A stretch of DNA of 64,000 nucleotides from Patescibacteria group bacterium (GCA_040388415.1 JAZKBV010000001.1:10369-74368), one strand, 5' to 3'; numbered from the stretch's first letter, positions 36,717-60,521 are shown. The notes: generated from the sequence alone by a model not told the origin. Numbers and translations: made by a program.

Positions 36717-37116
36717 GATTCATATAGTATACATGATAACCTGTATACGTTAAAACGTTGATAAATGCGCTGGTGGATTGGGGGATAGATTTTGTGTTCA
36801 AAATCGGACGTTTTTCAGAGCGGTTTTCGTTTAAAAGAGTATAAAAAGCGATCTCAAAAAACCTAGTAAAATCGACCTCTGCTAGCCGAGATTGCCGTAT
36901 TTTTCGTGATTAAAATTGCATGAGCTTAATCAAAAAAATAAGGAATTTTTAATGCATTTTTTGATCAAAATAGAATCAAAATTTCATCCAATGAAATGAT
37001 GATCTAGATGTTTGAAGAGCTATAAAGTCGTGTTACAGGGTGAAGCGAATGCGAGGCGCACTTATGTGATAGTAGTATGTATCAACGAAGTACTTATTTT
37101 ACATTCAAATCTCATT

Positions 37117-37384: not shown

Positions 37385-37721
37385 AGTGGCCGTAAGCCAT
37401 CTATAGTCTAAGCCACAAAACCTTACTAAAGGTATATACATTGGCAACAAATTTAGTAATGTTTATATATTTTTAATATTCTATTTACTAAAACTGAAGC
37501 GAGATCATTTTGATCTGTTTTGTATACCAAAAATGGCAAAAAAGGTGACATGAATCTTGATCAACGACCGTTTAAAATGCCCCAGGACGAAATTTGTTTT
37601 GAATGAAGTCCGACACTTGTTTTGATTATTTATTTTGAGGCTCTTTTGGTTGTATAAAATAAGCCTAGTTATCCCCAGAAAACAAATATATAAATGATAC
37701 TCGTCGTTATAATACTCTTGT

Positions 37722-38606: not shown

Positions 38607-38607
38607 T

Positions 38608-39405
38608 ATGAAAACTCCATTCATGAACAATTTGAAGTCATTCAGAGTCGATTACGATAAGGTCTTCGCATTTATCGCTTTCTTGTCTCTCATCTCATAT
38701 TTCTTCGCTTCTTATGTCTTTGCGCAGAACATGTCGAGCACGAACTATTCGATTCCTGATCAGAGTATCAATTTTGCTGGTAAACTTTCTTCATCGACGA
38801 ACTATACTGTCGAAGATACGGCTGGTGAAGTTGCTACTGGCTTTGCTTCAAGCACGAACTATGGCATCAGTGCAGGTTATCAGCAGATGAATATCGTCAC
38901 TCTTTCAGTTGTTCCACCTTCAAATGTCATCATGTCTTCAGCTCTCGGTGGTGTTTCAGGTGGTAGTTCGAACGGTTCGACAACCTTTACAGTCACTACA
39001 GATGATGCTGCGGGTTATACGGCGACGATTACGGCTAGTTCTTCTCCTGCACTGGTCAGTGGAGCCAATTCTTTCGCTGATTATAGCCCTGCTGGCGCCG
39101 CTCCTGACTATACCTACTCGATCTTGCCAACAAACTCAAACTTTGGCTTCTCAGTACAAGGGACTGATACTGATCAACGCTTCAAGAATAACGGCTCGAT
39201 CTGCAATACAGGCTCAAATACGACAGCGACTACATGCTGGGACGGTCTCTCGACCTCACCAAAGACCATTGCTGGTCGTACAACGAACAATACGCCATCA
39301 GGAACGCAGACGGTGTTGTATTTCCGCGCAGCAACCGGGTCGAACCATATTCAAGTTAATGGCACCTATGTTGCAACAACAACACTGACCGTGACCCCGC
39401 TATAA
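38608..39405 (+). CDS. Secreted protein, member 1 of a 3-copy paralog family in this window (signal anchor, Ser/Thr/Asn-rich beta-rich body, conserved Cys pair)
   Basis: It shares blocks with 59815..60519 and 61594..62289, including MSSALGGVSGGSSNG...TTDDAAGYTATITASSS, FKNNGS.CNTG...C and a C-terminal TYVATTTLTVTP. It has an N-terminal hydrophobic helix. Confidence 0.6.
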   Translation: MKTPFMNNLKSFRVDYDKVFAFIAFLSLISYFFASYVFAQNMSSTNYSIPDQSINFAGKLSSSTNYTVEDTAGEVATGFASSTNYGISAGYQQMNIVTLSVVPPSNVIMSSALGGVSGGSSNGSTTFTVTTDDAAGYTATITASSSPALVSGANSFADYSPAGAAPDYTYSILPTNSNFGFSVQGTDTDQRFKNNGSICNTGSNTTATTCWDGLSTSPKTIAGRTTNNTPSGTQTVLYFRAATGSNHIQVNGTYVATTTLTVTPL

Positions 39406-39411: not shown

Positions 39412-42400
39412 ATGAAGCATTTTATCTACACAACTCTCGTACTTGTCGGACTCTTCACACAGAGCGCCTTTCCAGTACGTGCATCAGTTGGTAGTACGTT
39501 CACTGCTTCATTCACCACGACTGGCGTTGTAGATTCGATCGCTCCTACGACACCAGTTGGAGTAACAGCGACTCCAGTGTCTCAGTCACAGATCAATCTT
39601 TCATGGACACCTTCAACTGATAACATTGGTGTTGCCGGATATGTCATCTTCCGCGATGCATCTGCGGTTGCTACAACATCAGTTGCATCATTTGTTGATA
39701 CCGGATTGGTCGCAAGCACAACATACACATATGAGGCGCAAGCATTCGATACATCATTTAATTATTCAAGTACATCAGCTGCAGTATCTACGACAACACT
39801 TCCGGTTCCTCCAGTCATCGTGGCTACGTCAACGCCGACAACCTCACCAGTAGTTTCTGGTGGCACTTCAGGTACACCATTTATCCATGGATTGAACATT
39901 GCAGTGCAACCAACCGAGGCTTCGGTCACATTCAATACTGCACGTCCAGCGCGTTCAACTATCTCATGGGGTACAACATCAGATCTCGAAGGAGGTTCGA
40001 TCACCAGTATTTTGTACGATACAACACATGCAGTCACTATTTCGAATCTCGTGCCCAATACGCACTACTTCGCACGCATCACTGTAGTCGACGCACGTGG
40101 CAATCAGTTTGCGTCTTCGATCGAATTTGTCACGCCAACTCTCATATATTCACCACTCGTCAACCCATCTAACTTCAGCGCACAGTTCGCGACTGTCGGA
40201 CGCACCGGAGTCAATCTCACCTGGACAAATCCAAACGATGCTCGTTTTGACTCTGTGCGCATCGTTCGTTCTGAAAGCTTCTTCCCACGCGATCAGTTTG
40301 ACGGCGTGCTCATATATGAGGGTGCACGCGAATCGTTCTTCGATGCAACAGCTATTCCTGGCAAGACATACTACTACGCTATTTTTGCAAAGGATGCGAA
40401 CGGTGCATATTCATCAGGTGCATTGGCACAGGCTTCATCGGTTGTCGGCACAAATCCATTCGTCACTGCGCCACAAGCTGGCTATGTCGATCCGCTCATC
40501 GCACGTTTGACGATCGCTGACTTTGAATTCATCCAGCAGGGCAAAGATCTCATGGTGAATGGTACAAGCACGGTCATGATCAACGGTATGAACAACCTCA
40601 CGATCCGTTTGCCCTACAACAAAGTTCCTGAAGTGTTGAAGACGATCGCAGTTTCTCTCACTGATCCAAAAGACTCATCAAAGGCATTTATCTTCCTACT
40701 CCGCGCAAACACAGAGAAGACATACTACGAGGCAAGCATCGGTGCGCTCAACGCAGTTGGTTCATTCCCATTAGCTATCAGCATCCTCGATTATCAAAAT
40801 CAGAGCTTGAAACAGATCGCCGGTTCAGTCCAAGCTCTCGTTTTTGCTGCGCAAGCTTCTTCAAATGACACAGACCAGCTTTTGCTCTTGATCATCCTTG
40901 TCGCATTGGTTGCTCTTGTGGTCTACGTGATTCGTGGACGTCGTACGGTCGGTATGAACAAGATGACTGGCGCAACGCTTGCTCTCATCTTGGTGTTCGG
41001 ATCATTCGGAACATTCTTTACTCCACAAGCTCACGCTGCGATCAATCAGCAGATCAATTATCAGGGCAAACTAACCAATGCATCGAACATCGCTGTCGCT
41101 GATGGAAGTTACATCGCATCGTTCAGTTTGTATACGGCTCCATCAGGTGGCGCAGCGATCTGGACTGAGCTCGATAACGGATCAAATAAAGTTGTTGTCA
41201 GAAATGGACTCTTTAGTGTCATGCTCGGTTCGACAACACCTCTCACGGGAGTTGATTTCAATCAGACATTGTATCTCGGCGTGACAATCGAAAGTGATTC
41301 AGAAATGACGCCCCGCAAGGTTATCGGCACGGTGCCTTCAGCTATCGTCGCGCAAACTCTTCAGAACATCACTCCCGGTCAGTTGCTCCGCAGTGATATT
41401 CAAAACTCAACATCGACATCAGCAACATTCCTCAATGTATTGCAGAGTGGAGCAGGAAAGATTGCCGAGTTCTTTGGTCAGTCGAGTTTCAGTGTATTCT
41501 CACTTCTTTCAAATGGAAATGTTGGCGTCGGTACATCGACACCAGGTTCACGTTTTGCTATCGCAGGTGCAGCTGGCGCGACCACAGCGCTCTTTAGCGT
41601 TTCAACGTCGACATCAGGTTTTGCGACAACAACGACATTCCAAATCGATCAGAACGGTAGCCTCGCTCTCAGAAATGGCGCGACACTCACATTGAACAAT
41701 TTAAACGGTCCATTGCAGGCGAACAACGGCGTTGTATCAGCGACATCATCAGTAGGTGTGTTGTATGGAGGTACTGGAATTACGACAGCTCCAGCGTACG
41801 GCAACCTCTTGATTGGAAATAACACAGGAGGTTACACGCTTACTGCGACATCTTCACTTGGTCTCGCCAACTTAACTGCAACAAATAGTACCCTCACATT
41901 TTCAGGTGCATATAATGGAAGTACTGCTCGCACAGTTGGTATCAACTTGGCTAATTCAAATACATGGACAGTCAATCAAGCATTTAATGCAAATGATAGT
42001 ACATCTGGCTCTATAAAAATTCAAAACGGTTCAGTCACTTCGAATTCGGGAGTTATCGGTATCGCAGGTTCATCAAATGCGCTCGCCACTGGAGCGGCGT
42101 CAGGGGATTTTGTGCTCAGTACAGATTTTTCTAATATTATCTTCTCGGCAAAGAGCGGGTCACGATCTGACATCTATATCAGAAGTAGTGATGGATATGT
42201 CGGCATCGGTACCACCTCACCATTTGCAAGACTTTCAGTCGACGGTCGCGGTGTCTTCAATCAAGATGTCCGTGCTGATTACTACACAGCAACTTCAACC
42301 TCGATCGCTTCAACTTTCCCATATGCTTCAACAACTGCTCTTACAGTTGCAGGTACAAATGGTCTTACGGTTGGTACATTGAATGGTCCTCTCCAAGCAA

Positions 42401-45400
42401 ATAACGGAACAGTTTCAGCAACCTCATCAATTGGTGTTCTCTACGGTGGCACTGGACTCACCACTGCTCCTACGTATGGCCAAGTGCTCGTAGGTAATGC
42501 TCTTGGTGGTTATACGCTTACCGCGACATCTTCACTCGGTTTCCCAGTTGGCGCTGCATATCCATTCACCTCACTCACCAACTATGGTGCAACTAACCAA
42601 GCAACCACGGGCATCGCATGGTTCCAGAATGGGTTGAATGCAAGTTCGACATCGCACTTTGTGAATGCATCTACCACCGCGCTCACTGTCGCAGGCAACC
42701 TCTATGTTGGCTCACTCAGTGGCCTCCTCCTTGCAACTAACGGCACAGTTTCATCAGTCTCAACTTCATCACTTAACCTTTCAATACCTCTCGCTTCAAC
42801 AACAGGAACACTTGGTGTTGCAAACGGCGGCACAGGGGCAACGGCCTTCGGACAAGGATGGATCTACTCAGTCGGTGGCACCGGAGCATTGAGTGCTTCT
42901 ACAAGTCCAACGGTTACATTCCTTTATGCAACTTCAACCTCGATCGCCTCAACCTTCCCATACGCTTCAACCACAGCGCTCACCGTGTCAAACGGCGCAG
43001 GATTCTTCCTCGGCTCACTCAACGGCCCACTCCAAGCAAATAACGGAAAGGTAAGTGCAACCTCATCAGTTGGTGTTCTCTACGGTGGCACCGGACTCAC
43101 AACAGCCCCTTCATATGGCAATATCTTGGTTGGTAATGCTCTCGGCGGGTATACGTTGACCGCGACTTCATCTCTCGGCATCACAGGTGTATCAGGTGGC
43201 ACCGCAGGCATGCTCACCTCATGGACTGGCGGTTCAACTCTCACTGCAACTGGTACTCCAACAGCTGCTGCATACTATGCTTCATCGACGACTGCGACAT
43301 CAACGTTCATGGGTGGTTTCGTTGCTGGCACGAACGGACTGACGGTGCTTCAGAATGGCAATGTCGGCATTGGAAATACAGCTCCACTTAATAAGTTCGA
43401 TGTGACCGGCAGTTTTAATTCGCAGTCACTAGATGGACAATCGATCAGAAACAATGATTCAGAAGGCATCGTTCTCGATGATGGCGGCAATGGGACAGGA
43501 ATCAGGCTTACCTCGTTGGGCACTGAATTTAGAGTCGATGGCAATAATGGCGCTTTCTTGTTCAATTCTGGAAACGTCGGCATCGGCACGTCATCACCAT
43601 TCACGGCTCTCTCAGTCATGGGTAATGGATATTTCGCAGGCAATGTCACCGCATCAAACTTCACTGCAACATCTACAACAGCGACAAGTACCTTCCCGAT
43701 CTTGAGACAAGGTGAAATCGCTATCATCGATCCTCTCGGAAGTGCAAAGTATGTCGTTGCTACCACCTCAACTGATGTAGGACGCGGAAATGCTTTGAAG
43801 TATGCTGTTTCGATCGCCCAAAACGGTTCTTCGATATACCTCGCATCTACGACGTATGATCTCGGAAACTCGACCCTGGATTTGAGTCGATTGAATACAT
43901 TTTTTGTTCATCTGCATGGTGCTGGCAAGTATAGTACAGTCATCAAGAGCACTGCCACATTTGGTGTTCTCGATATCAATTCAGGCGAAGAGATAACAGA
44001 TCTGTCTGTCATAAATCCAAGTTATATCGGTATCAATTCTATAGAAGCATTCCGTAATGTTCTTATAAAGGATGTTTACATTCTAGCGGGAACAGTGGGT
44101 ATGTCATTGACGCCTGATAGAGATGGAACTGGCTACATAGAGAACGTAACGATCGATTCAAAGGGCGATGGCATACAAATGGCAAATGGAGTCTATGACA
44201 GCACTATGATGAGGATCTTCATACACGATTCCGATATCCGTGGAATACCAGGCGGCTCATCGACTGCGTATGGTATCAAGGCCGATGGTGTGACCGCGTA
44301 CATTTATAATACGAACATAGATATGTCAGCGTCAGGCGGCGCGACCTCGTATGGTCTTGAAGTTAGCGAGCGAAATGATTACCCCGGATATCTCTACGTA
44401 TCAGGCGGACAAATCTCGTCCAAGACCACGGACTTGGTGAATACTGCTGGAACGCCAGACAGTACGCTTTCTATCACTGCAAACACGATCTACGATGTTT
44501 CAAAGGCAACTGGGACACTTGCATACGCTGACGCGAATCAGATAATTAAAAGCATTTCGCATGGGACAGAAAATCTAGGCTTGGGAAGTCCAAATCCAAC
44601 ACATAAATTGGAGGTTAACGGTACCTCATTCTTTGAGTGTGGCGATGTTGATGATGCCTTTTCAGTGTACGATACTCCTGATGCTATAAGCAGACTTAAA
44701 GTTAATTGTGACAATCCATCTGTCGTTCTAAATAACCTTATGACAGTAACAGAGGGCGCTGTCGGCATCGGCACCAGCTCGCCATTCACTGATCTCTCAG
44801 TTGTTGGCAATGGATACTTCACGGGCAATCTCACTGCAACAAATATTACAGCGACAGGCACACTCAAGGTTGGTACTCTTAACGGTCCGCTCCAAGCGAA
44901 TAATGGTATCGTCAGTGCAACTACATCGGTCGGTGTTCGTTACGGAGGTACAGGGCTCACGACCGCTCCTTCATATGGAAATATTCTTGTTGGAAACAAT
45001 GCAGGAGGTTACACACTCACTGCGACGTCATCGCTCGGTCTCGGTTCAGGCACTGTCAACTCTGGTCTTCAGGGACAGGTAGCGTTCTATAATGCAAATG
45101 GTACCGCTGTTACTGGTACTTCAACGTTGTTCGTTGGGACGAATGGAAATGTTGGAGTCGGGACGACATCGTCAAGTGAAAAATTGACCGTCAATGGAAA
45201 TCTTCATTTAGTGAATTCAGCAAGCAACGCATTCGATGGATTTACTATCGATGCAAATAATGGCGAGACTGGTATCTTGCGTGCGCCAGGTGCTTCAAGT
45301 GCTGCTCTCCAATTTATTGCTGGAACAGGTAATTCAGGTGGTTACTTCGGAATTAGAAATTCAGGTGGAACGAACGGTACTGGTCAATTCTTCTTTAACT

Positions 45401-48400: not shown

Positions 48401-51400
48401 CATGGTCAACGACTACGTCACAAGTTACAGGACGTCTCGTAAATTACTCAAACAATACGACTGATATCGTCGCTATCGGCGCAAACTCAACTACAACAGC
48501 GAAATATTGGTTTGATCCAAACACACAGACATCATTCTTGTCAGGCAATGTCGGTATAGGTACAACCTCGCCATTCACCGCGCTTTCAGTCATGGGTAAT
48601 GGTTACTTTGCTGGCAACGTCACTGCCTCGAACTTCACCGCTACTTCAACAGTTGCTTCAACTTTCCCATACGCTTCAACAACAGCTCTTACAGTTGCAG
48701 GTACAAATGGTCTTACGGTTGGTACATTGAATGGTCCTCTCCAAGCAAATAACGGAACAGTATCAGCAACCTCATCAGTCGGTGTTCTCTACGGTGGCAC
48801 AGGACTTACCACTGCTCCTACATACGGACAGATCTTGGTTGGAAACAATGCAGGAGGATACACGCTTACTGCAACTTCATCACTCGGTCTTCCAACATTC
48901 CAGTACCCATTCACCTCACTCACCAACTATGGTGCAACTAACCAAGCCACAACAGGTATCGCATGGTTCCAGAATGGTTTGAATGCGAGTTCGACTTCAC
49001 ACTTTGTGAATGCATCTACCACAGCTCTCACTGTCGCAGGCAACCTCTATGTTGGCTCACTCAGCGGCCTCCTCCTTGGAACAAACGGCACCGTCTCGGC
49101 AGTATCAACCTCATCACTTAACCTTTCAATCCCTCTTGCTTCAACAACAGGAACGCTGGGTGTCGCTAATGGTGGCACCGGAGCAACGACCTTCAGCCAA
49201 GGTTGGATATATTCAACAGGTGGTACAACAGCACTCTCAGCTTCCACGAGTCCAACAGTCAACTACTTCACTGCAACTTCAACCTCGATCGCTTCAACCT
49301 TCCCATACGCTTCAACAACAGCTTTTTCGGCGACTGGAAATGCATATGTAGGCGGTGCGCTTGCGGTCGGAAATCAATACATTGTCGCAACAGGAACGAA
49401 CGCTTTCGCATCAGGATATTCTGACGGTGCCGGAGGTCTCTCGTTGATAAAATCGACAGGTGTTGGCTCTGTGGCGCTTGGTTATGTATTAAATGCAGGT
49501 TCGATTAATTCAAATAATAGCGGATCTGTCGCGGTCGGATATGCGGGCTATGGAAACTCTATCAACTCACAAGCAGCAGGCTCTTTTGCTGGAGGAAATA
49601 CGACAATCTTGTCTGGAAACATCGTAGCGTCTGGAGCCGGCTCATTTGTATGGGGCAGCAATATCAGCGCGACTCAAAGCCTGTCGACTGCCTTTGGTAA
49701 AGGGTTCACTAACTCGACAGCAGATACATTCCAAGTTGGATATTCGTCAACGCCTACGCTTACTGTTAATACTACGGGTGTTGGTATTGGCACGACATCG
49801 CCATACGCACCTCTTTCGGTTAATGGTCAGGTAGTTGCATCATACTTCACCGCAACTACATCTACTGCTTCGGTATTCCCATACGCTTCAACAACAGCGC
49901 TCACAGTTGCTGGCACCAACGGTCTTACGGTTGGTACATTGAATGGTCCTCTCCAAGCAAACAATGGCACAGTTAGTGCAACCTCATCAGTTGGCGTCCT
50001 CTACGGAGGCACAGGACTCACTACAGCTCCTACGTATGGCCAAGTGCTCGTAGGTAATGCTCTTGGTGGTTACACATTGACCGCAACATCTTCACTCGGT
50101 TTCCCAGTTGGCGCTGCATATCCATTCACCTCACTCACGAACTATGGTGCAACCAACCAAGCAACCACTGGCATCGCCTGGTTCCAGAATGGGTTGAATG
50201 CAAGTTCGACATCGCACTTCGAGACAGCACTTTTCAATGGCAATGTCGGCATCGGCACCACCTCACCATTCACTGCTCTCTCAGTTATGGGCAATGGATA
50301 CTTCGCAAATAACGTCACTGCATCATATTTCACTGCAACTTCGACAACTGCAACATCAACATTCGCCGGTGATATCAGTGTCGGTTCAGGTGGCTCAGAT
50401 GCTTTCGTTGTTGATTACTCAGGTAACGTTGGTATCGGCACTTCTACACCATGGAAGACACTTTCAGTCGCGGGCAGTATGGTCCTCACCGGTGGCTTGT
50501 ATGACAACGCCGCTTCAGCTGGTACCGCAGGATATGTCCTCATGTCGACTGCAACAGGTGTACGCTGGGTTGCGACAACAACTTCTTCGGGTACATATTC
50601 ATTTACTCCTCTCACCAACTTCGGCGCAACGAATCAGGCAACCACGGGCATCGCATGGTTCCAGAATGGGTTGAATGCAAGTTCGACATCACATTTCGAC
50701 AATGCTTCAACGACAGTTTTGTCAGCAGCAACGATCTGTATCTCAACAGACTGTCGTTCAGCATGGCCAACAGGAGGCGGTAGTGGTTCGAGCTCATGGT
50801 CAACAACAACCTCATCAGTTGCAGGACGCTTCATCAACTACTCGAACAACACGACTGACATCGTCACTATTGGCGGCAACGCAACCACAACCGCAAAGTA
50901 CTGGTTCGATCCAAATGCATTCACTTCATTCTTCACTGGCAATGTCGGCATCGGCACCACTTCACCGTTCACCGCGCTTTCAGTTATGGGTAGTGGATAC
51001 TTTGCAAACAATGTGACCGCTTCGTATTTCACCGCAACTTCGACAACGGCAACAAGCACCTTCGCTGGAGATGTCACCGTTGGTTCAGGTTCAGATACAT
51101 ATTTTATCGTAGATTACACAGGCAACGTTGGTATCGGCAGTACCACACCATACGCAAAGCTCTCAGTTTCAAATGGCTCGCAGCAAGACGGAACATTGCC
51201 ACTTTTCACTATTGCTTCAACTACAAATCAGAGCCTGTTCGCTGTTCTTGGAAATGGAAATGTCACTATTGGAACCACTTCCCAGCAATCGATCGACCCA
51301 AACAATCCTGCTAAGCTGCTTATCGACATGGGCACTAGCCAGAGTGAAGAAGGGATAAATGTCATAGGCACTGTTAACGACTTTTTGGAAAACAATGTCA

Positions 51401-54400
51401 AAAATCTGAGTTCTGGTCTTAATGCACAAGCGTGTCAGACTGCCACCGCAAACAATGGATCTGACCTGACAGGTTTTGTCTCCATCTGTGCTAATAACTC
51501 GAATTTCTACAATCCACAGACTTACAATGTTGGTGGAGGAGGTGATACATCCGTAATGTCCTTGGCCTCTGGAGATTTCTATATTAACAACGCTACGGCA
51601 AACAAGAAGCTCTACTTCATGACAGGCGGCACCGCGACATCAACAAATATCCGCATGACTGTTGATGGTAACGGCAACGTTGGTATCGGCACAACCACAC
51701 CAAATGCACTCCTTGCTCTTGTGGGTCAGAGCGGTTCAACAGGTCAGATCTTCGACGTCGCTTCATCGTCGGGCGCTTCTTACTTCCATATCACTTCAGC
51801 AGGAAATATCGGCATTGGAACTTCGTCTCCATTTGCAAAACTTTCTATTACTTCTATTGCACAAAATGGTGGAAACTCTCTCCTCACAGTGGCCTCAAGT
51901 AGCGGTTCAACTTTGTTCACTGTTCTTGGTAACGGCAATGTCGGCATCGGCACTTCAAGTCCTCTCGCAACCCTCCATCTCTATAATACAAATACTCCTG
52001 GCGCAGCGCCGTCGATCCTTATGGGAGGAAATAATGGGGGCGACACAGATTTCTGGATGGCGCGCGTCAATGATAATGATTCTACGGATAATGACTTCTT
52101 CCAGATTGGAACAGGAAATACGCCTGGCACGAATCCATATTTCAGCATCAATAGAAACGGATATGTAGGCGTCGGCACCACTTCGCCATTTGCAGTGGTA
52201 TCGATCGCAAATACACGCAACAGCGTCGCCAATACTCCGCTTTTGACCATTGCTTCAACAACGAATGGAACGGCAACCTCAACTCTTATGACAGTGCTTG
52301 CAAACGGCTCTATCGGCATGGGATCAAGTACTCCATCAAGCCTCGCAACTCTCAGTGTCAGCGGTTCAACATACTTGGGCTCAGGCATAGGAACTAGTTT
52401 GACTATCCACTCAGGTATCATCAACTATCCGACACAGGCAACAAGTACAGTTTTGAACGGTCTCGATAACGTTTGGTCTATTGCCACCTCTACGACAAAT
52501 ACTCCGATCTTCAGTATCTCAACACGTTCAAGTCCAGCAGGTCTCATTGGTATCGGCACATCATCACCATTCGGCAGATTCTCACTTGAAATGGGAACAA
52601 TGGCCAATAGTCTCTGGATCGGTAACCAGGGTAGTTCGACACCTTCATTTGTCATCGCTGGTGTGAACGGCAACGGCTCAGTCGGCGTTGCGACGAACAC
52701 CCCTTCAGCGAACTTCGCATTCTCAGTTGGTGGTTCTACGTATCTCGGCGCTGGCGTAGGTAGCAACTTGACTATCCATAGCAACCTCATCAACTATCCG
52801 ATTCAGTCGACCACAACTGTTCCAACAGGAGCGTTTGGCTGGTCTCTCGCGACTTCTACCGCGACTACTGGAAACCCACTCTTCACTACTTCTACGAACG
52901 GTGCAACTTCAACACTCGGCTTCTTTGTCGCTACGACAACAGGACTTGTTGCTGGTCAGGGTATGGGTCTCCCGTCAGCTCTCCAGAACTATATGATCGT
53001 TGGTAACGGTAAGGTTCAAGCTGGTATAGCTATTGTGAAAGGTGGTCTCTGTGTCGATAGTGATGGCTGGTGTACGGCTTCAACTACTGGTCGTGTCACT
53101 GCAGTCTCATCAACACTTGGTGGTTCAGACGTCGCTGAAATGTATTCATCAGCAGATGATCTCAAGCCAGGCGAGATTGTCAGTGCAAGCTATGGCACAT
53201 CGATCGTCCGCGCTTCAAAGGATACCGCTCACTCTCTCATGGGCATCGTTTCTACTGATCCTGGTTTGATACTCGGTCTCCAGCCAGACTCATCAGAATT
53301 TGCAGCAGGAAAGTTCCCAATCGCTCTTAATGGTCGCGTCCCAGTCAGAGTAAGCAATGAAAATGGTCCTATCGCTATCGGTGATCCGATCACTATCTCA
53401 TCAGTCTCTGGCGTCGGTATGCGTGCAACCGGAAGTTCAACCAAGGTGGTCGCCATCGCTCTCGAGCCGATGAACGATGTGAGCGGAACCGTCATGGGCT
53501 TTGTTCAGAACTACGAGCACGATGATCATCTTGCAAGTTTGTCAGTTGATACGAGCGGTACACTCAAGACAGTTGGTGATGTCTGTGCATACGGCACGCA
53601 GTGTTTGAGTGCTTCACTCAACCATATCAATGACCAGTTGAGTGCATTGTCTGCAACTGCCTCATCGACAAATACTGGCAGCGATATATCGAACGTATCG
53701 AGCCAGCTCGCAGCACTACAAGCTCGTATAGATTCTCTTGCATCATCGACTGTTTCGATCGCCGACTTCGCCTCAACGACCTCACGCCTCGAAACATTGA
53801 GCACTTCAACCCTCGCCATGATCGCTTCAACGACTGCTACCACTATCGCTTCATCGACAACATTCATCCAGTCAGTTGCTCTTGCGGTCTACGACATCAT
53901 GAACTCAAGCGGTCAGGTCATCAGCTCTGCAGGAGATTGGTCTGTCCATCAGATCACCGCCGCAATCGGTAATTTCCAGACGCTCATCGCTGGTCGCGTC
54001 GAGACCCAGACAGCCGCAGTGTCAAATGGTCTCGAAATGAAGTCACCAAGCGGACAAACCTGGTGTGTTCGCATCGATGATATGGGTAATTTCCAGAGAA
54101 CACAGGGATCATGCGACACAGCAACATCGACGCCGGTCGTGTCAGCAGCGCCAGTTATCCAAACAAATCCTGTATTTGATACGACATCAACAGGAACTAC
54201 CACAACAGCTACGAGTACCGTGACTACGGTAGAAGATGTAAGCGCAAGCTCAACACCAGCGACTACAGGAACAGAGGGTGCGACCGCCACATCAAGTACA
54301 GCAACAATAACTTCAGATCCTGCACCGAGCCCAACACCTACAACTGAAACTGCGACAGCACCCGCTCCAGAGACATCAACAGTCTCATCAGTAGCACCAA

Positions 54401-54447
54401 CTGATGCAACGACAGGATCTTCGGATGCAACCACGGCAACACCATAA
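39412..54447 (+). CDS. Giant secreted cell-surface protein (5011 aa): signal peptide, 2 FN3-like domains, internal TM hairpin, beta-helix-like block, tail-fibre/YadA-head-like repeat arrays, C-terminal coiled-coil and beta-rich domain
   Basis: It is a single uninterrupted frame of 15,036 nt. An N-terminal signal peptide (aa 1-24) is followed by two FN3-type domains. A hydrophobic hairpin spans aa 493-542. A beta-helix-like block lies at 43700..44580 and NTA-I/V-G repeats at 45900..46330. GNVGIGT(T/S)SP...L.V modules recur dozens of times. Confidence 0.8.
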   Translation: MKHFIYTTLVLVGLFTQSAFPVRASVGSTFTASFTTTGVVDSIAPTTPVGVTATPVSQSQINLSWTPSTDNIGVAGYVIFRDASAVATTSVASFVDTGLVASTTYTYEAQAFDTSFNYSSTSAAVSTTTLPVPPVIVATSTPTTSPVVSGGTSGTPFIHGLNIAVQPTEASVTFNTARPARSTISWGTTSDLEGGSITSILYDTTHAVTISNLVPNTHYFARITVVDARGNQFASSIEFVTPTLIYSPLVNPSNFSAQFATVGRTGVNLTWTNPNDARFDSVRIVRSESFFPRDQFDGVLIYEGARESFFDATAIPGKTYYYAIFAKDANGAYSSGALAQASSVVGTNPFVTAPQAGYVDPLIARLTIADFEFIQQGKDLMVNGTSTVMINGMNNLTIRLPYNKVPEVLKTIAVSLTDPKDSSKAFIFLLRANTEKTYYEASIGALNAVGSFPLAISILDYQNQSLKQIAGSVQALVFAAQASSNDTDQLLLLIILVALVALVVYVIRGRRTVGMNKMTGATLALILVFGSFGTFFTPQAHAAINQQINYQGKLTNASNIAVADGSYIASFSLYTAPSGGAAIWTELDNGSNKVVVRNGLFSVMLGSTTPLTGVDFNQTLYLGVTIESDSEMTPRKVIGTVPSAIVAQTLQNITPGQLLRSDIQNSTSTSATFLNVLQSGAGKIAEFFGQSSFSVFSLLSNGNVGVGTSTPGSRFAIAGAAGATTALFSVSTSTSGFATTTTFQIDQNGSLALRNGATLTLNNLNGPLQANNGVVSATSSVGVLYGGTGITTAPAYGNLLIGNNTGGYTLTATSSLGLANLTATNSTLTFSGAYNGSTARTVGINLANSNTWTVNQAFNANDSTSGSIKIQNGSVTSNSGVIGIAGSSNALATGAASGDFVLSTDFSNIIFSAKSGSRSDIYIRSSDGYVGIGTTSPFARLSVDGRGVFNQDVRADYYTATSTSIASTFPYASTTALTVAGTNGLTVGTLNGPLQANNGTVSATSSIGVLYGGTGLTTAPTYGQVLVGNALGGYTLTATSSLGFPVGAAYPFTSLTNYGATNQATTGIAWFQNGLNASSTSHFVNASTTALTVAGNLYVGSLSGLLLATNGTVSSVSTSSLNLSIPLASTTGTLGVANGGTGATAFGQGWIYSVGGTGALSASTSPTVTFLYATSTSIASTFPYASTTALTVSNGAGFFLGSLNGPLQANNGKVSATSSVGVLYGGTGLTTAPSYGNILVGNALGGYTLTATSSLGITGVSGGTAGMLTSWTGGSTLTATGTPTAAAYYASSTTATSTFMGGFVAGTNGLTVLQNGNVGIGNTAPLNKFDVTGSFNSQSLDGQSIRNNDSEGIVLDDGGNGTGIRLTSLGTEFRVDGNNGAFLFNSGNVGIGTSSPFTALSVMGNGYFAGNVTASNFTATSTTATSTFPILRQGEIAIIDPLGSAKYVVATTSTDVGRGNALKYAVSIAQNGSSIYLASTTYDLGNSTLDLSRLNTFFVHLHGAGKYSTVIKSTATFGVLDINSGEEITDLSVINPSYIGINSIEAFRNVLIKDVYILAGTVGMSLTPDRDGTGYIENVTIDSKGDGIQMANGVYDSTMMRIFIHDSDIRGIPGGSSTAYGIKADGVTAYIYNTNIDMSASGGATSYGLEVSERNDYPGYLYVSGGQISSKTTDLVNTAGTPDSTLSITANTIYDVSKATGTLAYADANQIIKSISHGTENLGLGSPNPTHKLEVNGTSFFECGDVDDAFSVYDTPDAISRLKVNCDNPSVVLNNLMTVTEGAVGIGTSSPFTDLSVVGNGYFTGNLTATNITATGTLKVGTLNGPLQANNGIVSATTSVGVRYGGTGLTTAPSYGNILVGNNAGGYTLTATSSLGLGSGTVNSGLQGQVAFYNANGTAVTGTSTLFVGTNGNVGVGTTSSSEKLTVNGNLHLVNSASNAFDGFTIDANNGETGILRAPGASSAALQFIAGTGNSGGYFGIRNSGGTNGTGQFFFNSTQLSQDVQFETNFANSYLGNDGSMNLNNTLYMPAGAGSIGIGTDAPGSVLHLKSVNPTLTVQNNGADGVDSISFVDDEAEKASIKMDAGNNLFSLSSNYNIALLSNNNVGIGTAAPAYALDVNGFVNVDGAYGYKQDGTTILVASSTTLSVLLGGNAGASLTDPNGLSNTAIGFNTLSTATSSVENTAVGYNALANNGTNYNTAVGTWSMYANTFGIDNTAIGGYSLRSNTTGSSSAAGGTSALQANTTGSFNTAFGKSSLRFNTTGSNNTALGFRALFNSLGTGNIGIGYSAGKYETGSDSFYVDNQDRTNTAGDKASALLYGKFNATAANQTLVINASTTVAQSLSVLGSGASYFLGNLGIGTSSPFTKFAVMGDGYYAGNVKASNFTATSSTASSFPYASTTALTVAGNLYVGSLSGLLLGTNGTVSAVSTSSLNLSIPLASTTGTLGVANGGTGATTFSQGWIYSTGGTTALSASTSPTVNYFTATSTTIASTFPYASTTALTVAGTNGLKVGTLNGPLQANNGTVSATSSVGVLYGGTGLTTAPAYGQVLVGNALGGYTLTATSSLGITGVSGGTAGMLTSWTGGSTLTATGTPTAAAYYASSTTATSTFRGGLSVAGSAGLTVLQNGNVGIGTASPSYKLHVAGTFAVQTGTGGSTSDSPSSDSFTTTYPNITANSVTGDYGGFSFTFYDDGSGNLLDTGDDHQIGTINYVNGVVSTVDFGDDTIDQINYTYSGTYALTTDSSGKVGIGTLSHLSNLDVGGNVAIGSYAGTNAAPTNGLIVSGNVGIGTASPEQTLHVKGPLLIEGNPTPRLYFKSNDGNWFVIDRYSGQESYSGYFGENGDTGDLFFRGQGSFYFGDQSTPAILANGATKKATFIFASSTAFSTAYASSTRDFVGTLNLPNITGTQCLHSVSGVVSGTGSDCASVAYPFTSLTNYGATNQATTGIAWFQNGINASSTSHFVNASTTVLSATAICISTDCRSAWPTGGGSGGGSWSTTTSQVTGRLVNYSNNTTDIVAIGANSTTTAKYWFDPNTQTSFLSGNVGIGTTSPFTALSVMGNGYFAGNVTASNFTATSTVASTFPYASTTALTVAGTNGLTVGTLNGPLQANNGTVSATSSVGVLYGGTGLTTAPTYGQILVGNNAGGYTLTATSSLGLPTFQYPFTSLTNYGATNQATTGIAWFQNGLNASSTSHFVNASTTALTVAGNLYVGSLSGLLLGTNGTVSAVSTSSLNLSIPLASTTGTLGVANGGTGATTFSQGWIYSTGGTTALSASTSPTVNYFTATSTSIASTFPYASTTAFSATGNAYVGGALAVGNQYIVATGTNAFASGYSDGAGGLSLIKSTGVGSVALGYVLNAGSINSNNSGSVAVGYAGYGNSINSQAAGSFAGGNTTILSGNIVASGAGSFVWGSNISATQSLSTAFGKGFTNSTADTFQVGYSSTPTLTVNTTGVGIGTTSPYAPLSVNGQVVASYFTATTSTASVFPYASTTALTVAGTNGLTVGTLNGPLQANNGTVSATSSVGVLYGGTGLTTAPTYGQVLVGNALGGYTLTATSSLGFPVGAAYPFTSLTNYGATNQATTGIAWFQNGLNASSTSHFETALFNGNVGIGTTSPFTALSVMGNGYFANNVTASYFTATSTTATSTFAGDISVGSGGSDAFVVDYSGNVGIGTSTPWKTLSVAGSMVLTGGLYDNAASAGTAGYVLMSTATGVRWVATTTSSGTYSFTPLTNFGATNQATTGIAWFQNGLNASSTSHFDNASTTVLSAATICISTDCRSAWPTGGGSGSSSWSTTTSSVAGRFINYSNNTTDIVTIGGNATTTAKYWFDPNAFTSFFTGNVGIGTTSPFTALSVMGSGYFANNVTASYFTATSTTATSTFAGDVTVGSGSDTYFIVDYTGNVGIGSTTPYAKLSVSNGSQQDGTLPLFTIASTTNQSLFAVLGNGNVTIGTTSQQSIDPNNPAKLLIDMGTSQSEEGINVIGTVNDFLENNVKNLSSGLNAQACQTATANNGSDLTGFVSICANNSNFYNPQTYNVGGGGDTSVMSLASGDFYINNATANKKLYFMTGGTATSTNIRMTVDGNGNVGIGTTTPNALLALVGQSGSTGQIFDVASSSGASYFHITSAGNIGIGTSSPFAKLSITSIAQNGGNSLLTVASSSGSTLFTVLGNGNVGIGTSSPLATLHLYNTNTPGAAPSILMGGNNGGDTDFWMARVNDNDSTDNDFFQIGTGNTPGTNPYFSINRNGYVGVGTTSPFAVVSIANTRNSVANTPLLTIASTTNGTATSTLMTVLANGSIGMGSSTPSSLATLSVSGSTYLGSGIGTSLTIHSGIINYPTQATSTVLNGLDNVWSIATSTTNTPIFSISTRSSPAGLIGIGTSSPFGRFSLEMGTMANSLWIGNQGSSTPSFVIAGVNGNGSVGVATNTPSANFAFSVGGSTYLGAGVGSNLTIHSNLINYPIQSTTTVPTGAFGWSLATSTATTGNPLFTTSTNGATSTLGFFVATTTGLVAGQGMGLPSALQNYMIVGNGKVQAGIAIVKGGLCVDSDGWCTASTTGRVTAVSSTLGGSDVAEMYSSADDLKPGEIVSASYGTSIVRASKDTAHSLMGIVSTDPGLILGLQPDSSEFAAGKFPIALNGRVPVRVSNENGPIAIGDPITISSVSGVGMRATGSSTKVVAIALEPMNDVSGTVMGFVQNYEHDDHLASLSVDTSGTLKTVGDVCAYGTQCLSASLNHINDQLSALSATASSTNTGSDISNVSSQLAALQARIDSLASSTVSIADFASTTSRLETLSTSTLAMIASTTATTIASSTTFIQSVALAVYDIMNSSGQVISSAGDWSVHQITAAIGNFQTLIAGRVETQTAAVSNGLEMKSPSGQTWCVRIDDMGNFQRTQGSCDTATSTPVVSAAPVIQTNPVFDTTSTGTTTTATSTVTTVEDVSASSTPATTGTEGATATSSTATITSDPAPSPTPTTETATAPAPETSTVSSVAPTDATTGSSDATTATP
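46622..46920 (+). repeat. Intragenic near-identical repeat, copy A (~300 bp) within giant gene
   Basis: The first ~260 nt are identical to 49028..49326 and the remainder differs at only a few positions, by my direct comparison. A more divergent copy (~85-90% identity) lies at about 42670..42980. Confidence 0.8.
49028..49326 (+). repeat. Intragenic near-identical repeat, copy B (~300 bp) within giant gene
   Basis: It matches 46622..46920, 2.4 kb upstream. Confidence 0.8.
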
Positions 54448-60519: not shown

Positions 60520-60521
60520 AC

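What the first reader, a model, noticed from the sequence alone, without database searches (positions are those of the whole stretch)
39412..54447. 15 kb single-ORF giant surface protein with mosaic FN3 / beta-helix / tail-fibre-like repeat architecture
A 5011 aa uninterrupted frame is exceptional for a genome of this gene density.

What the sequence shows:
- A cleavable-looking signal peptide, MKHFIYTTLVLVGLFTQSAFPVRA.
- Two FN3-type domains, one with the purple-acid-phosphatase N-terminal flavour (NLVPNTHYFARITVVD).
- A block at 43700..44580 with the periodic hydrophobic and Asn/Gly pattern of right-handed parallel beta-helices (pectin-lyase fold).
- An array of NTAIG/NTAVG..AL repeats at 45900..46330, resembling YadA-head or phage tail-fibre repeats.
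- Dozens of GNVGIGT(T/S)SP(F/Y)..L.V modules, a motif I associate with predicted tail-fibre-like and giant adhesin proteins.
- A Ser/Thr-rich predicted coiled-coil at about 53600..53900, followed by a distinct beta-rich C-terminal domain and a Pro/Thr tail.

In episymbiotic CPR bacteria, giant surface proteins are the prime candidates for host attachment. This one is unusually large and modular.
Basis: partly seen in the sequence, partly recalled or inferred. Interest (0 to 1): 0.8.

Follow-up and report, generated by a model that had tools for sequence, protein, structure and literature searches.

The report
Giant phage-fibre-like surface protein, Patescibacteria
A 5,011-residue gene in an uncultured ultrasmall (Patescibacteria/CPR) bacterium encodes a membrane-anchored surface fibre built from phage tail-fibre and tailspike parts, including the self-cleaving folding domain of phage phi29's appendage protein. 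It is most likely a cell-borne 'tail fibre' for recognising host cells.

Summary
The FN3 domain, the right-handed beta-helix and the phage tail-fibre-like repeats are confirmed. The YadA likeness is not.

Three findings are new:
- The ORF is a fusion of two genes that are separate in most relatives. One encodes an FN3 protein with a C-terminal membrane anchor. The other encodes a fibre with its own signal peptide. A transmembrane hairpin joins them (aa 489-542).
- The C-terminal domain (aa ~4545-4705) is homologous to the autoproteolytic auto-chaperone of phage phi29 gp12 (peptidase G2). The family's invariant D-x-A-E aligns on gp12's cleavage and catalytic residues, here S4572|D4573...E4576.
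- This C-terminal domain occurs at 424 loci in a scan of one genome for each of 185,579 bacterial and archaeal species. The best 80 are nearly all labelled Patescibacteria. It always sits near the end of 0.6 to >4 kaa ORFs.

Most likely this is a trimeric, C-terminally nucleated, self-processing host-recognition fibre.

Caveats: function is untested. A 258-nt exact internal repeat leaves copy number unverified. An independent assembly of a sister haplotype carries an in-frame TAG.

The parts
39412..54447 (+). Complete ORF, 5,011 aa (fusion of an anchor gene and a fibre gene)
   Evidence: Independent contigs L089, L088 and L001 tile most of it.
39412..39483 (+). N-terminal signal peptide, aa 1-24 (V-R-A | S)
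   Evidence: Read from the sequence. Homologous standalone anchor proteins P0032 and P0050 begin in the same way. Cleavage is inferred.
39553..39780 (+). FN3 domain 1, aa 48-123
   Evidence: Pfam PF00041, E 1.2e-11, 45 bits.
39907..40086 (+). FN3-like domain 2, aa 166-225
   Evidence: Pfam Pur_ac_phosph_N, E 7e-5, 23.7 bits, below the 30-bit cut-off. This shows FN3-like character only.
40144..40851 (+). Third FN3-like region (aa ~245-340) and a conserved juxtamembrane domain (aa ~345-480, 'LKTIAVSLTDP..SKAFIFLLRAN..KTYYEA')
   Evidence: Conserved in the standalone anchor proteins P0042, P0047 and P0050 and in the fused P0029, P0032 and P0034. The fold was not modelled.
40876..40932 (+). TM helix 1, aa 489-507 (QLLLLIILVALVALVVYVI)
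   Evidence: Kyte-Doolittle 19-residue mean of 3.15. In relatives this is the C-terminal anchor, followed by a basic tail and a stop codon.
40933..40965 (+). Basic cytoplasmic loop, aa 508-518 (RGRRTVGMNKM), with in-frame ATGs at M515 and M518
   Evidence: The positive-inside rule is from my own knowledge. Identical sequence in the independent contig L089.
40966..41037 (+). TM helix 2, a former signal peptide, aa 519-542, ending AHA|A
   Evidence: 100 of 120 homologues start with their own Met and leader 35-60 aa before 'INYQGKL'.
41038..41511 (+). Conserved N-terminal fibre module, aa 543-700 ('INYQGKLT..')
   Evidence: 153 homologues, all those named being Patescibacteria. No Pfam match at E<=10.
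41512..53043 (+). Fibre shaft: about 27 GNVGIGT(T/S)SP modules, 7 'LNGPLQANNG..YGGTG..' modules, 5 'YPFTSLTNYGATNQ' modules and large internal duplications
   Evidence: Paralogue pairs are 84-89% identical at nucleotide level and 92-97% at amino-acid level, with dN/dS 0.08-0.12. PHROG tail fibre phrog_9942, E 4.6e-11. No PDB or Pfam match.
43714..44526 (+). Right-handed parallel beta-helix (tailspike or polysaccharide-enzyme fold), aa 1435-1705
   Evidence: AF2 pLDDT 82.4, with most 10-residue blocks of the core averaging above 90. Foldseek hits include AlgE4 epimerase, CBA120 TSP2, the Kp7 tail fibre, pectin methylesterases, the Sf6 tailspike and the phi29 gp12 N-fragment. 73 relatives in the representative library. 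No Pfam match.
45901..46281 (+). NTAxG 16-17-residue repeat array, aa 2164-2290
   Evidence: phrog_23837, E 1.4e-19. tblastn hits annotated phage tail fibres at 40-50% identity, E down to 6e-15. No YadA_head or other Pfam hit at E<=10.
46621..46878 (+). Copy 1 of a 258-nt exact internal repeat
   Evidence: The borders are sharp and the flanks are unrelated.
49027..49284 (+). Copy 2 of the 258-nt exact repeat (spacing 2,406 nt = 802 codons)
53044..53526 (+). phi29-gp12-type (peptidase G2-like) intramolecular chaperone domain, aa 4545-4705, preceded by the Cys motif GGLCVDSDGWC
   Evidence: Pfam PF23982 E 3.9e-6 and PF11962 E 1.4e-3. AF2 pLDDT about 87-97 over most of the domain. Foldseek 3suc 1.8e-5 and 3gqh 6.2e-5. 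BFVD 'Preneck appendage protein' 1.6e-13. Family profile against gp12, E 6.1e-5.
53125..53139 (+). Predicted autocleavage site S4572|D4573-V-A-E4576
   Evidence: Aligns to gp12 S691|D692-F-A-E695. The 3gqh fragment starts at that Asp, and at that Glu position the 'pre-mature' 3suc chain has Gln. D-x-A-E is present in 79/80 genome loci and 80/80 viral loci. Cleavage itself is inferred.
53593..53907 (+). Ser/Thr-rich helical (coiled-coil-like) region, aa 4728-4832
   Evidence: AF2 helices at local residues 209-313, pLDDT about 45-80. Only weak coiled-coil Pfam matches.
53974..54105 (+). Small conserved Cys-containing beta domain, aa 4855-4898 ('TQTAAVSNGLEM..YCVRI..G')
   Evidence: AF2 strands, pLDDT about 79-88. 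Conserved in P0009, P0012, P0013 and P0017. Function unknown.
54118..54444 (+). Pro/Thr/Ser-rich low-complexity tail, aa 4903-5011; no LPXTG motif
36459..39405 (.). Conserved upstream genes: MerR/HTH_17 (36459-36716, minus strand), a weak HTH_17 match followed by a hydrophobic segment (37722-38606, plus strand), and a small putative secreted protein (38539-39405, plus strand)
   Evidence: Pfam. The same order, GatB, HTH, two small genes, FN3 anchor, giant gene, occurs in L006 and L007, with a variant in L004.
54469..55335 (+). Downstream LamG (Laminin_G_3) protein with a signal-peptide-like N-terminus, 21 nt after the giant ORF; terminator-like site at 55379

Best explanation
The gene encodes a cell-surface fibre of a Paceibacterota (Patescibacteria/CPR) bacterium. 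The fibre is assembled on the same principle as a phage tailspike or tail fibre.

**Shown here:**
- The polypeptide begins with a Sec-type signal peptide, three FN3-like domains and a conserved juxtamembrane domain.
- It then crosses the membrane twice. TM1 is aa 489-507, followed by an 11-residue basic loop. TM2 (aa 519-542) is the former signal peptide of the fibre gene and still ends in AHA|A.
- About 4,000 residues of tail-fibre-like modules follow. They include an embedded right-handed beta-helix (aa 1435-1705) and NTAxG repeats shared with phage tail fibres.
- Near the C-terminus lies a homologue of the phi29 gp12 auto-chaperone with the catalytic D and E in place. After it come a helical segment, a small Cys domain and a Pro/Thr tail.

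**Inferred:**
- After unfolded export, three chains are held at the membrane by their N-terminal hairpins or by the FN3 anchor.
- They register and trimerise from the C-terminal helical and chaperone region, and folding proceeds back towards the membrane.
- The chaperone then cuts itself off between S4572 and D4573, removing the last 439 residues.
- That leaves a mature fibre whose tip is the conserved Cys-containing segment.
- Signal peptidase may also cut at A542|A543. The product would be the same as in relatives whose anchor and fibre genes are separate. The fusion itself suggests that the FN3 anchor is the fibre's docking partner.
- The fibre serves to recognise and hold a host cell surface. 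The beta-helix acts as a glycan-binding, and possibly glycan-cleaving, module.
For: **ORF and topology.**
- The ORF is intact.
- The fusion junction is identical in the independent contig L089, which carries a 993-aa uninterrupted gene call.
- Three relatives (P0029, P0032, P0034) are fused with different linkers and all keep an AxA site.
- Of 120 listed homologues, 100 are standalone fibres with their own leader and 6 are anchor-only.
- The anchor gene and the giant gene lie close together on the same strand in L004 and L006.

**Chaperone domain.**
- Pfam PF23982 (E 3.9e-6, at threshold) and PF11962 Peptidase_G2 (E 1.4e-3) both match.
- The AF2 domain is confident.
- The best PDB fold hits are phi29 gp12 entries 3suc and 3gqh.
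- The best viral fold hit is 'Preneck appendage protein', E 1.6e-13.
- The family profile hits gp12 at E 6.1e-5 and places the invariant D-x-A-E on gp12 S691|D692..E695. The cleaved fragment 3gqh starts at that Asp. The chain of the entry titled 'pre-mature' gp12 (3suc) has Gln at that Glu position.
- D-x-A-E is kept in 79/80 genome loci and 80/80 viral loci.
- Mature gp12* is a trimer ending at residue 691 (PMC6542822). Phage intramolecular chaperones are released after trimer folding (PMC4690869).

**Beta-helix.**

**Tail-fibre modules.**

**Cellular rather than prophage context.** The neighbours are housekeeping and transport genes and tRNAs.

**Family spread.** 424 loci in the species-representative genomes, with the domain always 60-900 aa from the ORF end.
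Against: - There is no experimental or proteomic evidence. Trimerisation, autocleavage and signal-peptidase processing are all inferred.
- The Pfam Peptidase_G2 score (18.5 bits) is below its 25-bit cut-off.
- The same fold also occurs in non-cleaving phage capsid decoration proteins.
- The window's beta-helix lacks two Asp residues that are nearly invariant in its family (S1473 and V1562). Catalysis is therefore doubtful.
- The shaft modules have no solved or modelled structure.
- Repeat order and copy number are unverified because of the 258-nt exact repeat.
- A sister haplotype in an independent assembly has TAG at codon 1595.
- No host is known.
Confidence: 0.6

Rival explanations
1. The fibre architecture is the same, but the gp12-like C-terminal domain is not a released chaperone. 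It stays attached as a permanent trimeric distal knob, like a capsid decoration protein. The coiled coil, the Cys domain and the Pro/Thr tail would then form the functional tip or a wall-interacting end.
For: - The fold is shared with non-cleaving phage decoration and cement proteins of HFTV1, Pam3, BB1, TW1 and T1, and with PF23982, a minor capsid protein.
- The residue before the Asp is not conserved.
- About 280 residues of conserved sequence follow the domain in most relatives. That is more than the 163-residue fragment gp12 releases.
Against: - The D-x-A-E motif is invariant and aligns exactly with the gp12 cleavage and catalytic residues. Such strict conservation would be unexpected for a purely structural role.
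- The best fold hits are gp12 itself and 'Preneck appendage protein' rather than decoration proteins.
Confidence: 0.15
2. The 15-kb single ORF overstates reality. It could be an assembly construct, with repeat units mis-ordered or mis-counted or with strains mixed. It could also be a gene that is interrupted or decaying in the population.
For: - There is a 258-nt exact repeat 2,406 nt apart, a 77-nt exact repeat 6,348 nt apart, and independent contigs that end at such repeats.
- L088 is a mosaic of stretches identical to the window and stretches 13-15% divergent. It carries TAG at codon 1595 and a 10-N gap.
- The relative L006 has a frameshift just after the fusion.
- 42392-42883 and 48740-50194 have no independent cover.
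Against: - All repeat spacings are multiples of 3, and the frame stays open for 5,011 codons.
- Paralogous modules differ mainly at synonymous sites (dN/dS about 0.1), as expected for real, selected copies rather than collapsed reads.
- Three independent contigs agree with about 85% of the gene and are collinear with it.
- Differences in the L088 haplotype are also mostly synonymous.
- Relatives routinely have 2-4 kaa ORFs of the same build.
Confidence: 0.1
3. It is a surface fibre, but host attachment is not its purpose. It could be a structural coat or matrix fibre, a cell-cell cohesion factor, or a decoy or shield against phages.
For: - Nothing in the data identifies a ligand.
- The composition, rich in Ser/Thr and poor in charged residues, and the repetitive build would also suit a coat or matrix protein.
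- The beta-helix lacks two Asp residues conserved in its family.
Against: - The modules are those that phages use for receptor binding: a tailspike-type beta-helix, tail-fibre repeats and an intramolecular chaperone.
- The strain-level mosaic divergence in the gene fits a recognition molecule under diversifying exchange.
- Adjacent genes encode LamG lectin-like proteins, one of them pilin-like.
- A review describes cultivated Patescibacteria as obligate epibionts and notes that surface proteins predicted to be adhesins are essential in a Saccharibacterium (PMC11665869).
Confidence: 0.12
4. It is a tail fibre gene of a prophage or phage, not a cellular gene.
For: - PHROG tail-fibre and virion-protein matches.
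- 344 relatives of the chaperone domain on IMG/VR viral contigs.
- An excisionase-like HTH_17/MerR gene lies upstream.
Against: - None of the window ORFs scanned has a capsid, portal, terminase or tail Pfam match. The scanned neighbours are GatB, ThrRS, TGT-like, MacB/HlyD, ATPase and tRNA genes.
- The locus order next to gatB is conserved in different Paceibacteria.
- The protein has a Sec signal and membrane anchors.
- Viral relatives are 39% identical or less, against 40-55% (85% for the closest) among Patescibacteria genome loci. The viral ones also lack the Cys motif, 0/80 against 56/80.
Confidence: 0.03

Closest known systems
Bacillus phage phi29 gp12 pre-neck appendage (tailspike), MEROPS/Pfam Peptidase_G2 auto-chaperone
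   Same: - Both have a right-handed beta-helix and a C-terminal beta-structured auto-chaperone.
- The family D-x-A-E motif aligns on gp12 S691|D692..E695.
- gp12 and 'Preneck appendage protein' are the best fold hits.
- gp12 is a homotrimer whose mature form ends at residue 691 (PMC6542822).
   Different: - Length is 5,011 aa against 854 aa.
- This gene is chromosomal and cellular, with a Sec signal, FN3 domains and a TM hairpin instead of a virion-attachment N-terminus.
- The beta-helix lies about 2,850 residues upstream of the chaperone rather than next to it.
- About 300 extra residues (helices, Cys domain, Pro/Thr tail) follow the chaperone domain.
- A Cys-pair motif before the cleavage site is absent from the viral relatives.
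- The Pfam PF11962 score is below its threshold.
Phage fibres and spikes with the S74-type intramolecular chaperone (T5 pb1, K1F endosialidase), and eukaryotic MyRF
   Same: The logic is the same. A C-terminal domain nucleates the trimer, ends in or lies next to a coiled coil, and is removed by autoproteolysis (PMC4690869). MyRF shows that this device can be used by cellular, membrane-anchored proteins (PMC8326128).
   Different: The fold and chemistry differ. In T5 pb1 a serine (Ser1264) is responsible for the cleavage (PMC4690869), whereas here the conserved residues are an Asp and a Glu. No Peptidase_S74 match occurs in this protein. S74 does occur in 2 of 31 relatives of the beta-helix domain.
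Giant membrane and surface proteins of other CPR bacteria (for example Vampirococcus lugosii, 1,392-4,163 aa) and giant proteins of Omnitrophota
   Same: These are also very large predicted surface proteins in ultrasmall episymbiotic or predatory bacteria, and they have been proposed to mediate host contact (PMC8080830; 10.1101/2023.11.21.568195).
   Different: Those proteins were described by WD40, PKD, integrin, DUF11, dockerin and similar domains. No phage-fibre build or autoproteolytic chaperone was reported for them. No paper in the library contains 'intramolecular chaperone', 'Peptidase_G2' or 'pre-neck appendage' together with Patescibacteria or Saccharibacteria among the 15 best-ranked results.
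Trimeric autotransporter adhesins (YadA-like head repeats)
   Same: Both have short Asn/Gly-rich repeats (NTAxG..) and are probably trimeric fibres.
   Different: No YadA_head, stalk or anchor Pfam match appears even at E<=10. There is no outer-membrane beta-barrel anchor. The lineage is monoderm (PMC11665869). The repeats match phage tail fibres instead.
Aureispira grappling-hook protein GhpA (5,898 aa, PDB 9flp)
   Same: It is a giant bacterial fibre of similar length. By my own recollection it is used to catch other cells.
   Different: The only link is an insignificant sequence hit (E 0.51). This is an analogy, with no evidence of homology.

Membership tests
Peptidase G2 / phi29 gp12-type intramolecular chaperone (Pfam PF11962) | Sequence match to the family model above its curated threshold | tested here: not met
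   PF11962 gives E 1.4e-3 and 18.5 bits against a 25-bit cut-off. A profile of the Patescibacteria family does hit gp12 itself at E 6.1e-5.
Peptidase G2 / phi29 gp12-type intramolecular chaperone (Pfam PF11962) | Fold of the gp12 C-terminal auto-chaperone | tested here: met
   The AF2 domain has pLDDT about 87-97 over most of its length. The best Foldseek PDB hits are 3suc (1.8e-5) and 3gqh (6.2e-5). The best BFVD hit is 'Preneck appendage protein' at 1.6e-13.
Peptidase G2 / phi29 gp12-type intramolecular chaperone (Pfam PF11962) | Conserved Asp at the scissile bond and Glu three residues later (gp12 D692, E695) | tested here: met
   D4573 and E4576 align to D692 and E695. The motif is invariant in 18/18 aligned relatives, 79/80 genome loci and 80/80 viral loci.
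Peptidase G2 / phi29 gp12-type intramolecular chaperone (Pfam PF11962) | Position near the C-terminus of a trimeric fibre or spike, downstream of a beta-helix | tested here: inconclusive
   The domain lies 60-900 aa from the ORF end in all 80 loci, and a beta-helix is present. However, the helix is 2,850 residues upstream, and the trimeric state was not modelled.
Peptidase G2 / phi29 gp12-type intramolecular chaperone (Pfam PF11962) | Autoproteolytic release after assembly | not testable with these tools
   This needs expression of the C-terminal fragment with D4573N and E4576Q controls.
Right-handed parallel beta-helix (pectin-lyase fold), as in tailspike depolymerases | The fold | tested here: met
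   AF2 pLDDT 82.4 and pTM 0.76. Almost all of the top 50 PDB hits are beta-helix enzymes or tailspikes, with a best E of 4.8e-4. No Pfam Beta_helix or Pectate_lyase match.
Right-handed parallel beta-helix (pectin-lyase fold), as in tailspike depolymerases | Catalytic acidic residues or enzymatic activity | tested here: inconclusive
   One invariant Asp is kept (D1586). Two nearly invariant family Asp positions are Ser1473 and Val1562 in the window. The active-site geometry was not examined.
Fibronectin type III domain | Pfam fn3 match above threshold | tested here: met
   aa 48-123, E 1.2e-11, 45 bits against a 25-bit cut-off.
Purple acid phosphatase N-terminal domain | Pfam PF16656 above threshold, together with a phosphatase catalytic domain | tested here: not met
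   23.7 bits against a 30-bit cut-off, and no metallophosphatase domain.
Trimeric autotransporter adhesin (YadA family) | YadA head or stalk repeats and a C-terminal beta-barrel membrane anchor | tested here: not met
   No such Pfam match at E<=10 on the repeat region, and none at E<=0.01 on the C-terminal pieces.
Sortase-anchored Gram-positive surface protein | C-terminal LPXTG motif, hydrophobic segment and basic tail | tested here: not met
   No LP.T[GANS] motif anywhere in the protein. It ends in a Pro/Thr tail.
Phage tail fibre (virion component) | Encoded within a phage structural module | tested here: not met
   The neighbours scanned are chromosomal housekeeping and transport genes, with no capsid, portal or terminase match among them. 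Synteny next to gatB is conserved.

The most novel reading that the evidence does not exclude
Patescibacteria as a group may have taken over the phage receptor-binding toolkit to build their own giant, membrane-anchored 'tail fibres'. The toolkit comprises tail-fibre repeats, a tailspike beta-helix and the phi29-type self-cleaving chaperone. These fibres would be the main determinants of which host cell an episymbiont can attach to. Strain-level mosaic exchange of fibre segments, as seen between the window and L088, would then act as a host-range switch in the way it does in phages. The FN3/TM protein would be the conserved membrane socket of the fibre.
Probability: 0.4. Interest if true: 0.75.

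Novelty: new variant of a known kind. Interest (0 to 1): 0.6.

Why it matters
How ultrasmall episymbiotic bacteria find and hold their hosts is largely unknown beyond type IV pili. This locus offers a concrete and widespread candidate: the chaperone domain occurs at 424 loci in species-representative genomes.

The proposed assembly mechanism can be tested directly. It predicts trimerisation from the C-terminus and self-cleavage at S4572|D4573, which D4573N or E4576Q should block.

The work also places a domain so far known from phage appendages at the end of giant cellular proteins. In addition, it defines several uncharacterised module families that current Pfam and NCBIfam models do not detect in more than 90% of this protein.

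The gene fusion gives a 'Rosetta-stone' hint that the neighbouring FN3/TM protein is the fibre's anchor. The mosaic strain variation suggests that the gene is a target of recombination-driven diversification.

Tried and rejected
**Searches that found little or nothing:**
- Pfam and NCBIfam scans of seven overlapping pieces found only FN3. The chaperone match appeared only when the C-terminal 194 aa were scanned alone.
- PDB sequence searches found nothing significant with the C-terminal 628 aa, with aa 1284-2363, with a profile of the 'LNGPLQANNG' module, or with the beta-helix family profile.
- The word-indexed homologue search found nothing for the beta-helix block. The exhaustive representative search then found 73 relatives.
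- Pfam at E<=10 found nothing on five individual modules.
- tblastn of the shaft modules and the beta-helix against GenBank phages gave no match.
- An exact-match search for the fusion junction in JGI metagenome contigs gave no match.
- Alignment A2 was too diverse for the locus scan. The closer set A4 worked.

**Ideas considered and dropped:**
- Prophage origin, because of the chromosomal context and conserved synteny.
- Trimeric autotransporter, because there is no anchor and no head match.
- Sortase substrate, because there is no LPXTG motif.
- Loss of a stop codon through sequencing error as the cause of the fusion. The junction is identical in an independent contig, and three relatives are fused with different linkers.
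- The frameshift in L088 as evidence against the ORF. It is caused by a 10-N scaffold gap that replaces 9 nt. The TAG in L088 is a real base difference and is reported as a caveat.

Full report
**1. The observation**

Window 39412..54447 (+) is one ATG-to-stop frame of 5,011 codons. It is rich in Thr, Gly, Ser, Ala and Asn (57% together) and poor in charged residues. A frame of this length cannot stay open by chance.

- Pfam fn3 covers aa 48-123 (E 1.2e-11). A sub-threshold Pur_ac_phosph_N match at aa 166-225 indicates FN3-like character only.
- GNVGIGT-type motifs occur about 27 times.
- The Pro/Thr tail is visible in the translation.

More than 90% of the protein has no Pfam or NCBIfam match. 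PHROG tail-fibre, tail-spike and virion-protein families do match it (phrog_9942 E 4.6e-11, phrog_23837 E 1.4e-19).

**2. Is the 15-kb frame real?**

Three contigs of an independent NCBI assembly (GCA_040384245.1) lie collinear with the gene:
- L089 covers window 36650-42391 at 99.98% identity. Its gene call is an uninterrupted 993 aa.
- L088 covers 42884-48739 at 96.1%.
- L001 covers 50195-55464 at 100%, and so does a Logan contig, L002.

Internal paralogous modules are 84-89% identical in DNA but 92-97% identical in protein, with dN/dS about 0.08-0.12. This is what real, selected duplicates look like, and not what collapsed reads look like.

Two cautions remain.
- The gene holds a 258-nt exact repeat (46621 and 49027, 2,406 nt apart, with sharp borders and unrelated flanks) and a 77-nt exact repeat (42337 and 48685). 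The independent contigs stop at such repeats. Unit order and copy number therefore depend on the window's own assembly. 42392-42883 and 48740-50194 have no independent cover.
- L088 is a mosaic. Long stretches are identical to the window, and patches of 13-15% divergence interrupt them. The differences are mostly synonymous (88 nt and 16 aa differences in 208 codons). It carries TAG where the window has TAT (Tyr1595).

The apparent frameshift in L088 is an artefact of a 10-N scaffold gap. A second haplotype therefore exists, and in that assembly it is interrupted.

**3. The ORF is a fusion of two genes**

Residues 489-507 form a strong TM helix. An 11-residue basic loop (RGRRTVGMNKM) follows, and then a second hydrophobic segment that ends AHA|A.

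Relatives of this region fall into three groups:
- Standalone proteins of about 595 aa, consisting of a signal peptide, FN3 domains and a TM helix, which stop after a basic tail (P0042, P0047, P0050).
- Standalone fibres that start with their own Met and signal peptide 35-60 residues before 'INYQGKL'. These make up 100 of the 120 listed homologues.
- Three fused forms with different linkers (P0029, P0032, P0034), all keeping a small-x-small site.

The locus order is conserved: gatB, a MerR/HTH gene, two small genes, the FN3 anchor and then the giant gene (L006, L007). L004 is a variant. The junction sequence is identical in L089, so the fusion is not a sequencing error.

The predicted topology is an FN3 ectodomain outside, a hairpin through the membrane, and the fibre outside. 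Signal peptidase could still cut at A542|A543, or translation could start at M515 or M518. Either would give the two products that relatives make from separate genes. The fusion suggests that the FN3/TM protein is the fibre's membrane partner. This last point is inference.

**4. The C-terminal domain**

Scanned alone, aa 4520-4713 match PF23982 (a phage minor capsid protein, E 3.9e-6) and PF11962 Peptidase_G2 (E 1.4e-3, below threshold).

An AF2 model built on 28 homologues is confident over most of aa 4569-4704, with pLDDT about 87-97:
- Its best PDB fold matches are phi29 gp12, both the 'pre-mature' form (3suc, 1.8e-5) and the C-terminal fragment (3gqh, 6.2e-5). Phage capsid decoration proteins follow.
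- In the viral model library the top hit is 'Preneck appendage protein' at 1.6e-13.

A profile of 18 relatives hits gp12 at E 6.1e-5. It places the family's invariant D-x-A-E on gp12 S691|D692-F-A-E695. The crystallised cleaved fragment starts at that Asp. At that Glu position the chain of the entry titled 'pre-mature' gp12 has Gln.

In the window the corresponding site is GGS4572|D4573-V-A-E4576. The motif is present in 79/80 related genome loci and 80/80 viral loci.

From the literature, mature gp12* is a homotrimer ending at residue 691 (PMC6542822). Such C-terminal chaperones are released after trimer folding (PMC4690869).

Downstream of the domain lie predicted helices (aa 4728-4832), a small conserved Cys domain (aa 4855-4898) and the Pro/Thr tail.

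**5. The beta-helix and the repeats**

The block at aa 1421-1783 had no hit in the word-indexed search. It had 73 relatives in the exhaustive search. None of the 31 relatives scanned has a Pfam match over this domain. Two of them carry Peptidase_S74 and three carry PG_binding_1 elsewhere.

AF2 with these relatives gives pLDDT 82.4 and pTM 0.76. Almost all of the top PDB matches are right-handed parallel beta-helices. They include AlgE4 epimerase, CBA120 TSP2, the Kp7 tail fibre, pectin methylesterases, the Sf6 tailspike and the gp12 N-fragment.

Catalysis is uncertain. One invariant Asp (D1586) is kept, but two nearly invariant Asp positions are Ser and Val here.

The NTAxG array has a 16-17-residue period. 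It matches annotated tail fibres of Roseobacter, Pelagibacter and E. coli phages at 40-50% identity. It has no YadA-type Pfam match.

**6. Distribution and context**

A scan of one genome per bacterial and archaeal species found 424 loci that encode a relative of the chaperone domain:
- The best 80 are almost all labelled Patescibacteria (Paceibacteria, Kaiser-, Nomura-, Uhr- and Saccharibacteria, among others).
- The closest locus is 85% identical and comes from Ca. Paceibacterota STB_107.
- The domain always sits 60-900 residues from the end of a large ORF. ORFs with complete reading frames have a median of about 1,970 aa, and six run past 3,600 aa at the edge of the fetched DNA.

IMG/VR viral contigs hold 344 more distant relatives, at 39% identity or less. 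These lack the Cys motif that precedes the cleavage site in 56/80 of the genome loci.

None of the other window ORFs scanned has a phage structural match. They comprise two MacB/HlyD exporter sets, a P-type ATPase, NDH-2, ThrRS, GatB and two tRNAs, together with LamG, pilin-like and WxL-like surface proteins.

**7. Mechanism**

The modules, the topology signals, the homology of the chaperone domain with conserved catalytic residues, and the family distribution are shown. The following steps are inferred:
- Export through Sec.
- Three chains held at the membrane.
- Trimer nucleation at the C-terminal helical and chaperone region once the whole chain is outside.
- Folding back towards the membrane.
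- Self-cleavage at S4572|D4573.
- A mature fibre, probably well over 100 nm long if it is built like phage fibres (my own rough estimate). It would display a glycan-binding beta-helix and a Cys-stabilised tip for host recognition.

**8. Novelty**

Large CPR surface proteins have been noted before (PMC8080830). None of the 15 best-ranked papers from the literature search contained 'intramolecular chaperone', 'Peptidase_G2' or 'pre-neck appendage' together with Patescibacteria or Saccharibacteria. Current family libraries miss nearly all of the protein. I rate it a new variant of a known kind: a phage-type self-processing trimeric fibre used as a giant cellular surface organelle.

Noticed in passing
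L088 (GCA_040384245.1 JAWVHA010023802.1) against window 42884-48739: An independent contig is a mosaic. Long stretches are identical to the window. Patches of 13-15% mostly synonymous divergence lie at 44161-44302, 45873-46494, 46725-46812 and 47478-47946. It also carries an in-frame TAG at the window's Tyr1595 codon (44194-44196). This suggests either recombining haplotypes of the fibre gene or strain-chimeric assembly.
   Followed up: partly
window 46621-46878 and 49027-49284: A 258-nt perfectly identical repeat with sharp borders sits inside otherwise diverged modules. The L088 haplotype differs from the window at 16 positions in 46725-46812, inside copy 1. The identity may therefore reflect recent gene conversion, or an assembly effect, in the window's strain.
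   Followed up: partly
L006 11600-11900 (ENA ERZ27272026 k141_274255): A 55%-identical relative is also fused across the TM hairpin. It shifts frame about 25 codons into the fibre at a short duplicated 'ADGQYP' segment. The gene is therefore called as 576 aa plus 2,402 aa. Four contigs carry the same 576-aa product.
   Followed up: partly
window 38539-39405 (+) and P0029: The small protein just upstream contains an 'S.NY..(x)..SINF.G...S.NY..DTAGE..GYQQ' motif. The same motif appears at the N-terminus of the fused relative P0029. This domain is therefore sometimes fused to the anchor as well. It has no Pfam match.
   Followed up: no
window 59815-62289 (+): A cluster of two paralogous ~235-aa proteins with N-terminal hydrophobic segments (59815-60519 and 61567-62289) flanks a 356-aa protein. 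That protein has a weak WxLIP_PGBD match and a C-terminal TM helix. The arrangement resembles Gram-positive WxL surface-complex loci.
   Followed up: no
window 54469-55335 (+) and 57881-58642 (-): Two LamG (Laminin_G_3) proteins lie next to the giant gene. One has a signal-peptide-like N-terminus. The other has a type IV pilin N-terminal methylation motif, so it is a pilin-like lectin.
   Followed up: no
window 31669-32967 (+): A 432-aa protein has three PKD-like repeats separated by Tyr/Pro/Asn-rich linkers and a C-terminal TM anchor. It is another surface protein near the locus.
   Followed up: no
window 59-4203 and 20737-24487: There are two separate gene sets with MacB-type ABC permease and HlyD-like adaptor matches. 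That is unexpected in a small genome of a lineage described as monoderm.
   Followed up: no
window 16001-20000: GC content drops to 0.39 against about 0.46 elsewhere, and GC skew is strongly positive. This may be a foreign island.
   Followed up: no
L003 against window 31617-36417: The housekeeping flank (ThrRS, GatB) in the same NCBI assembly is 99.6% identical to the window, with 18 mismatches. The flanks of the giant gene are 99.98-100% identical. More than one closely related strain is therefore present in that data set.
   Followed up: no
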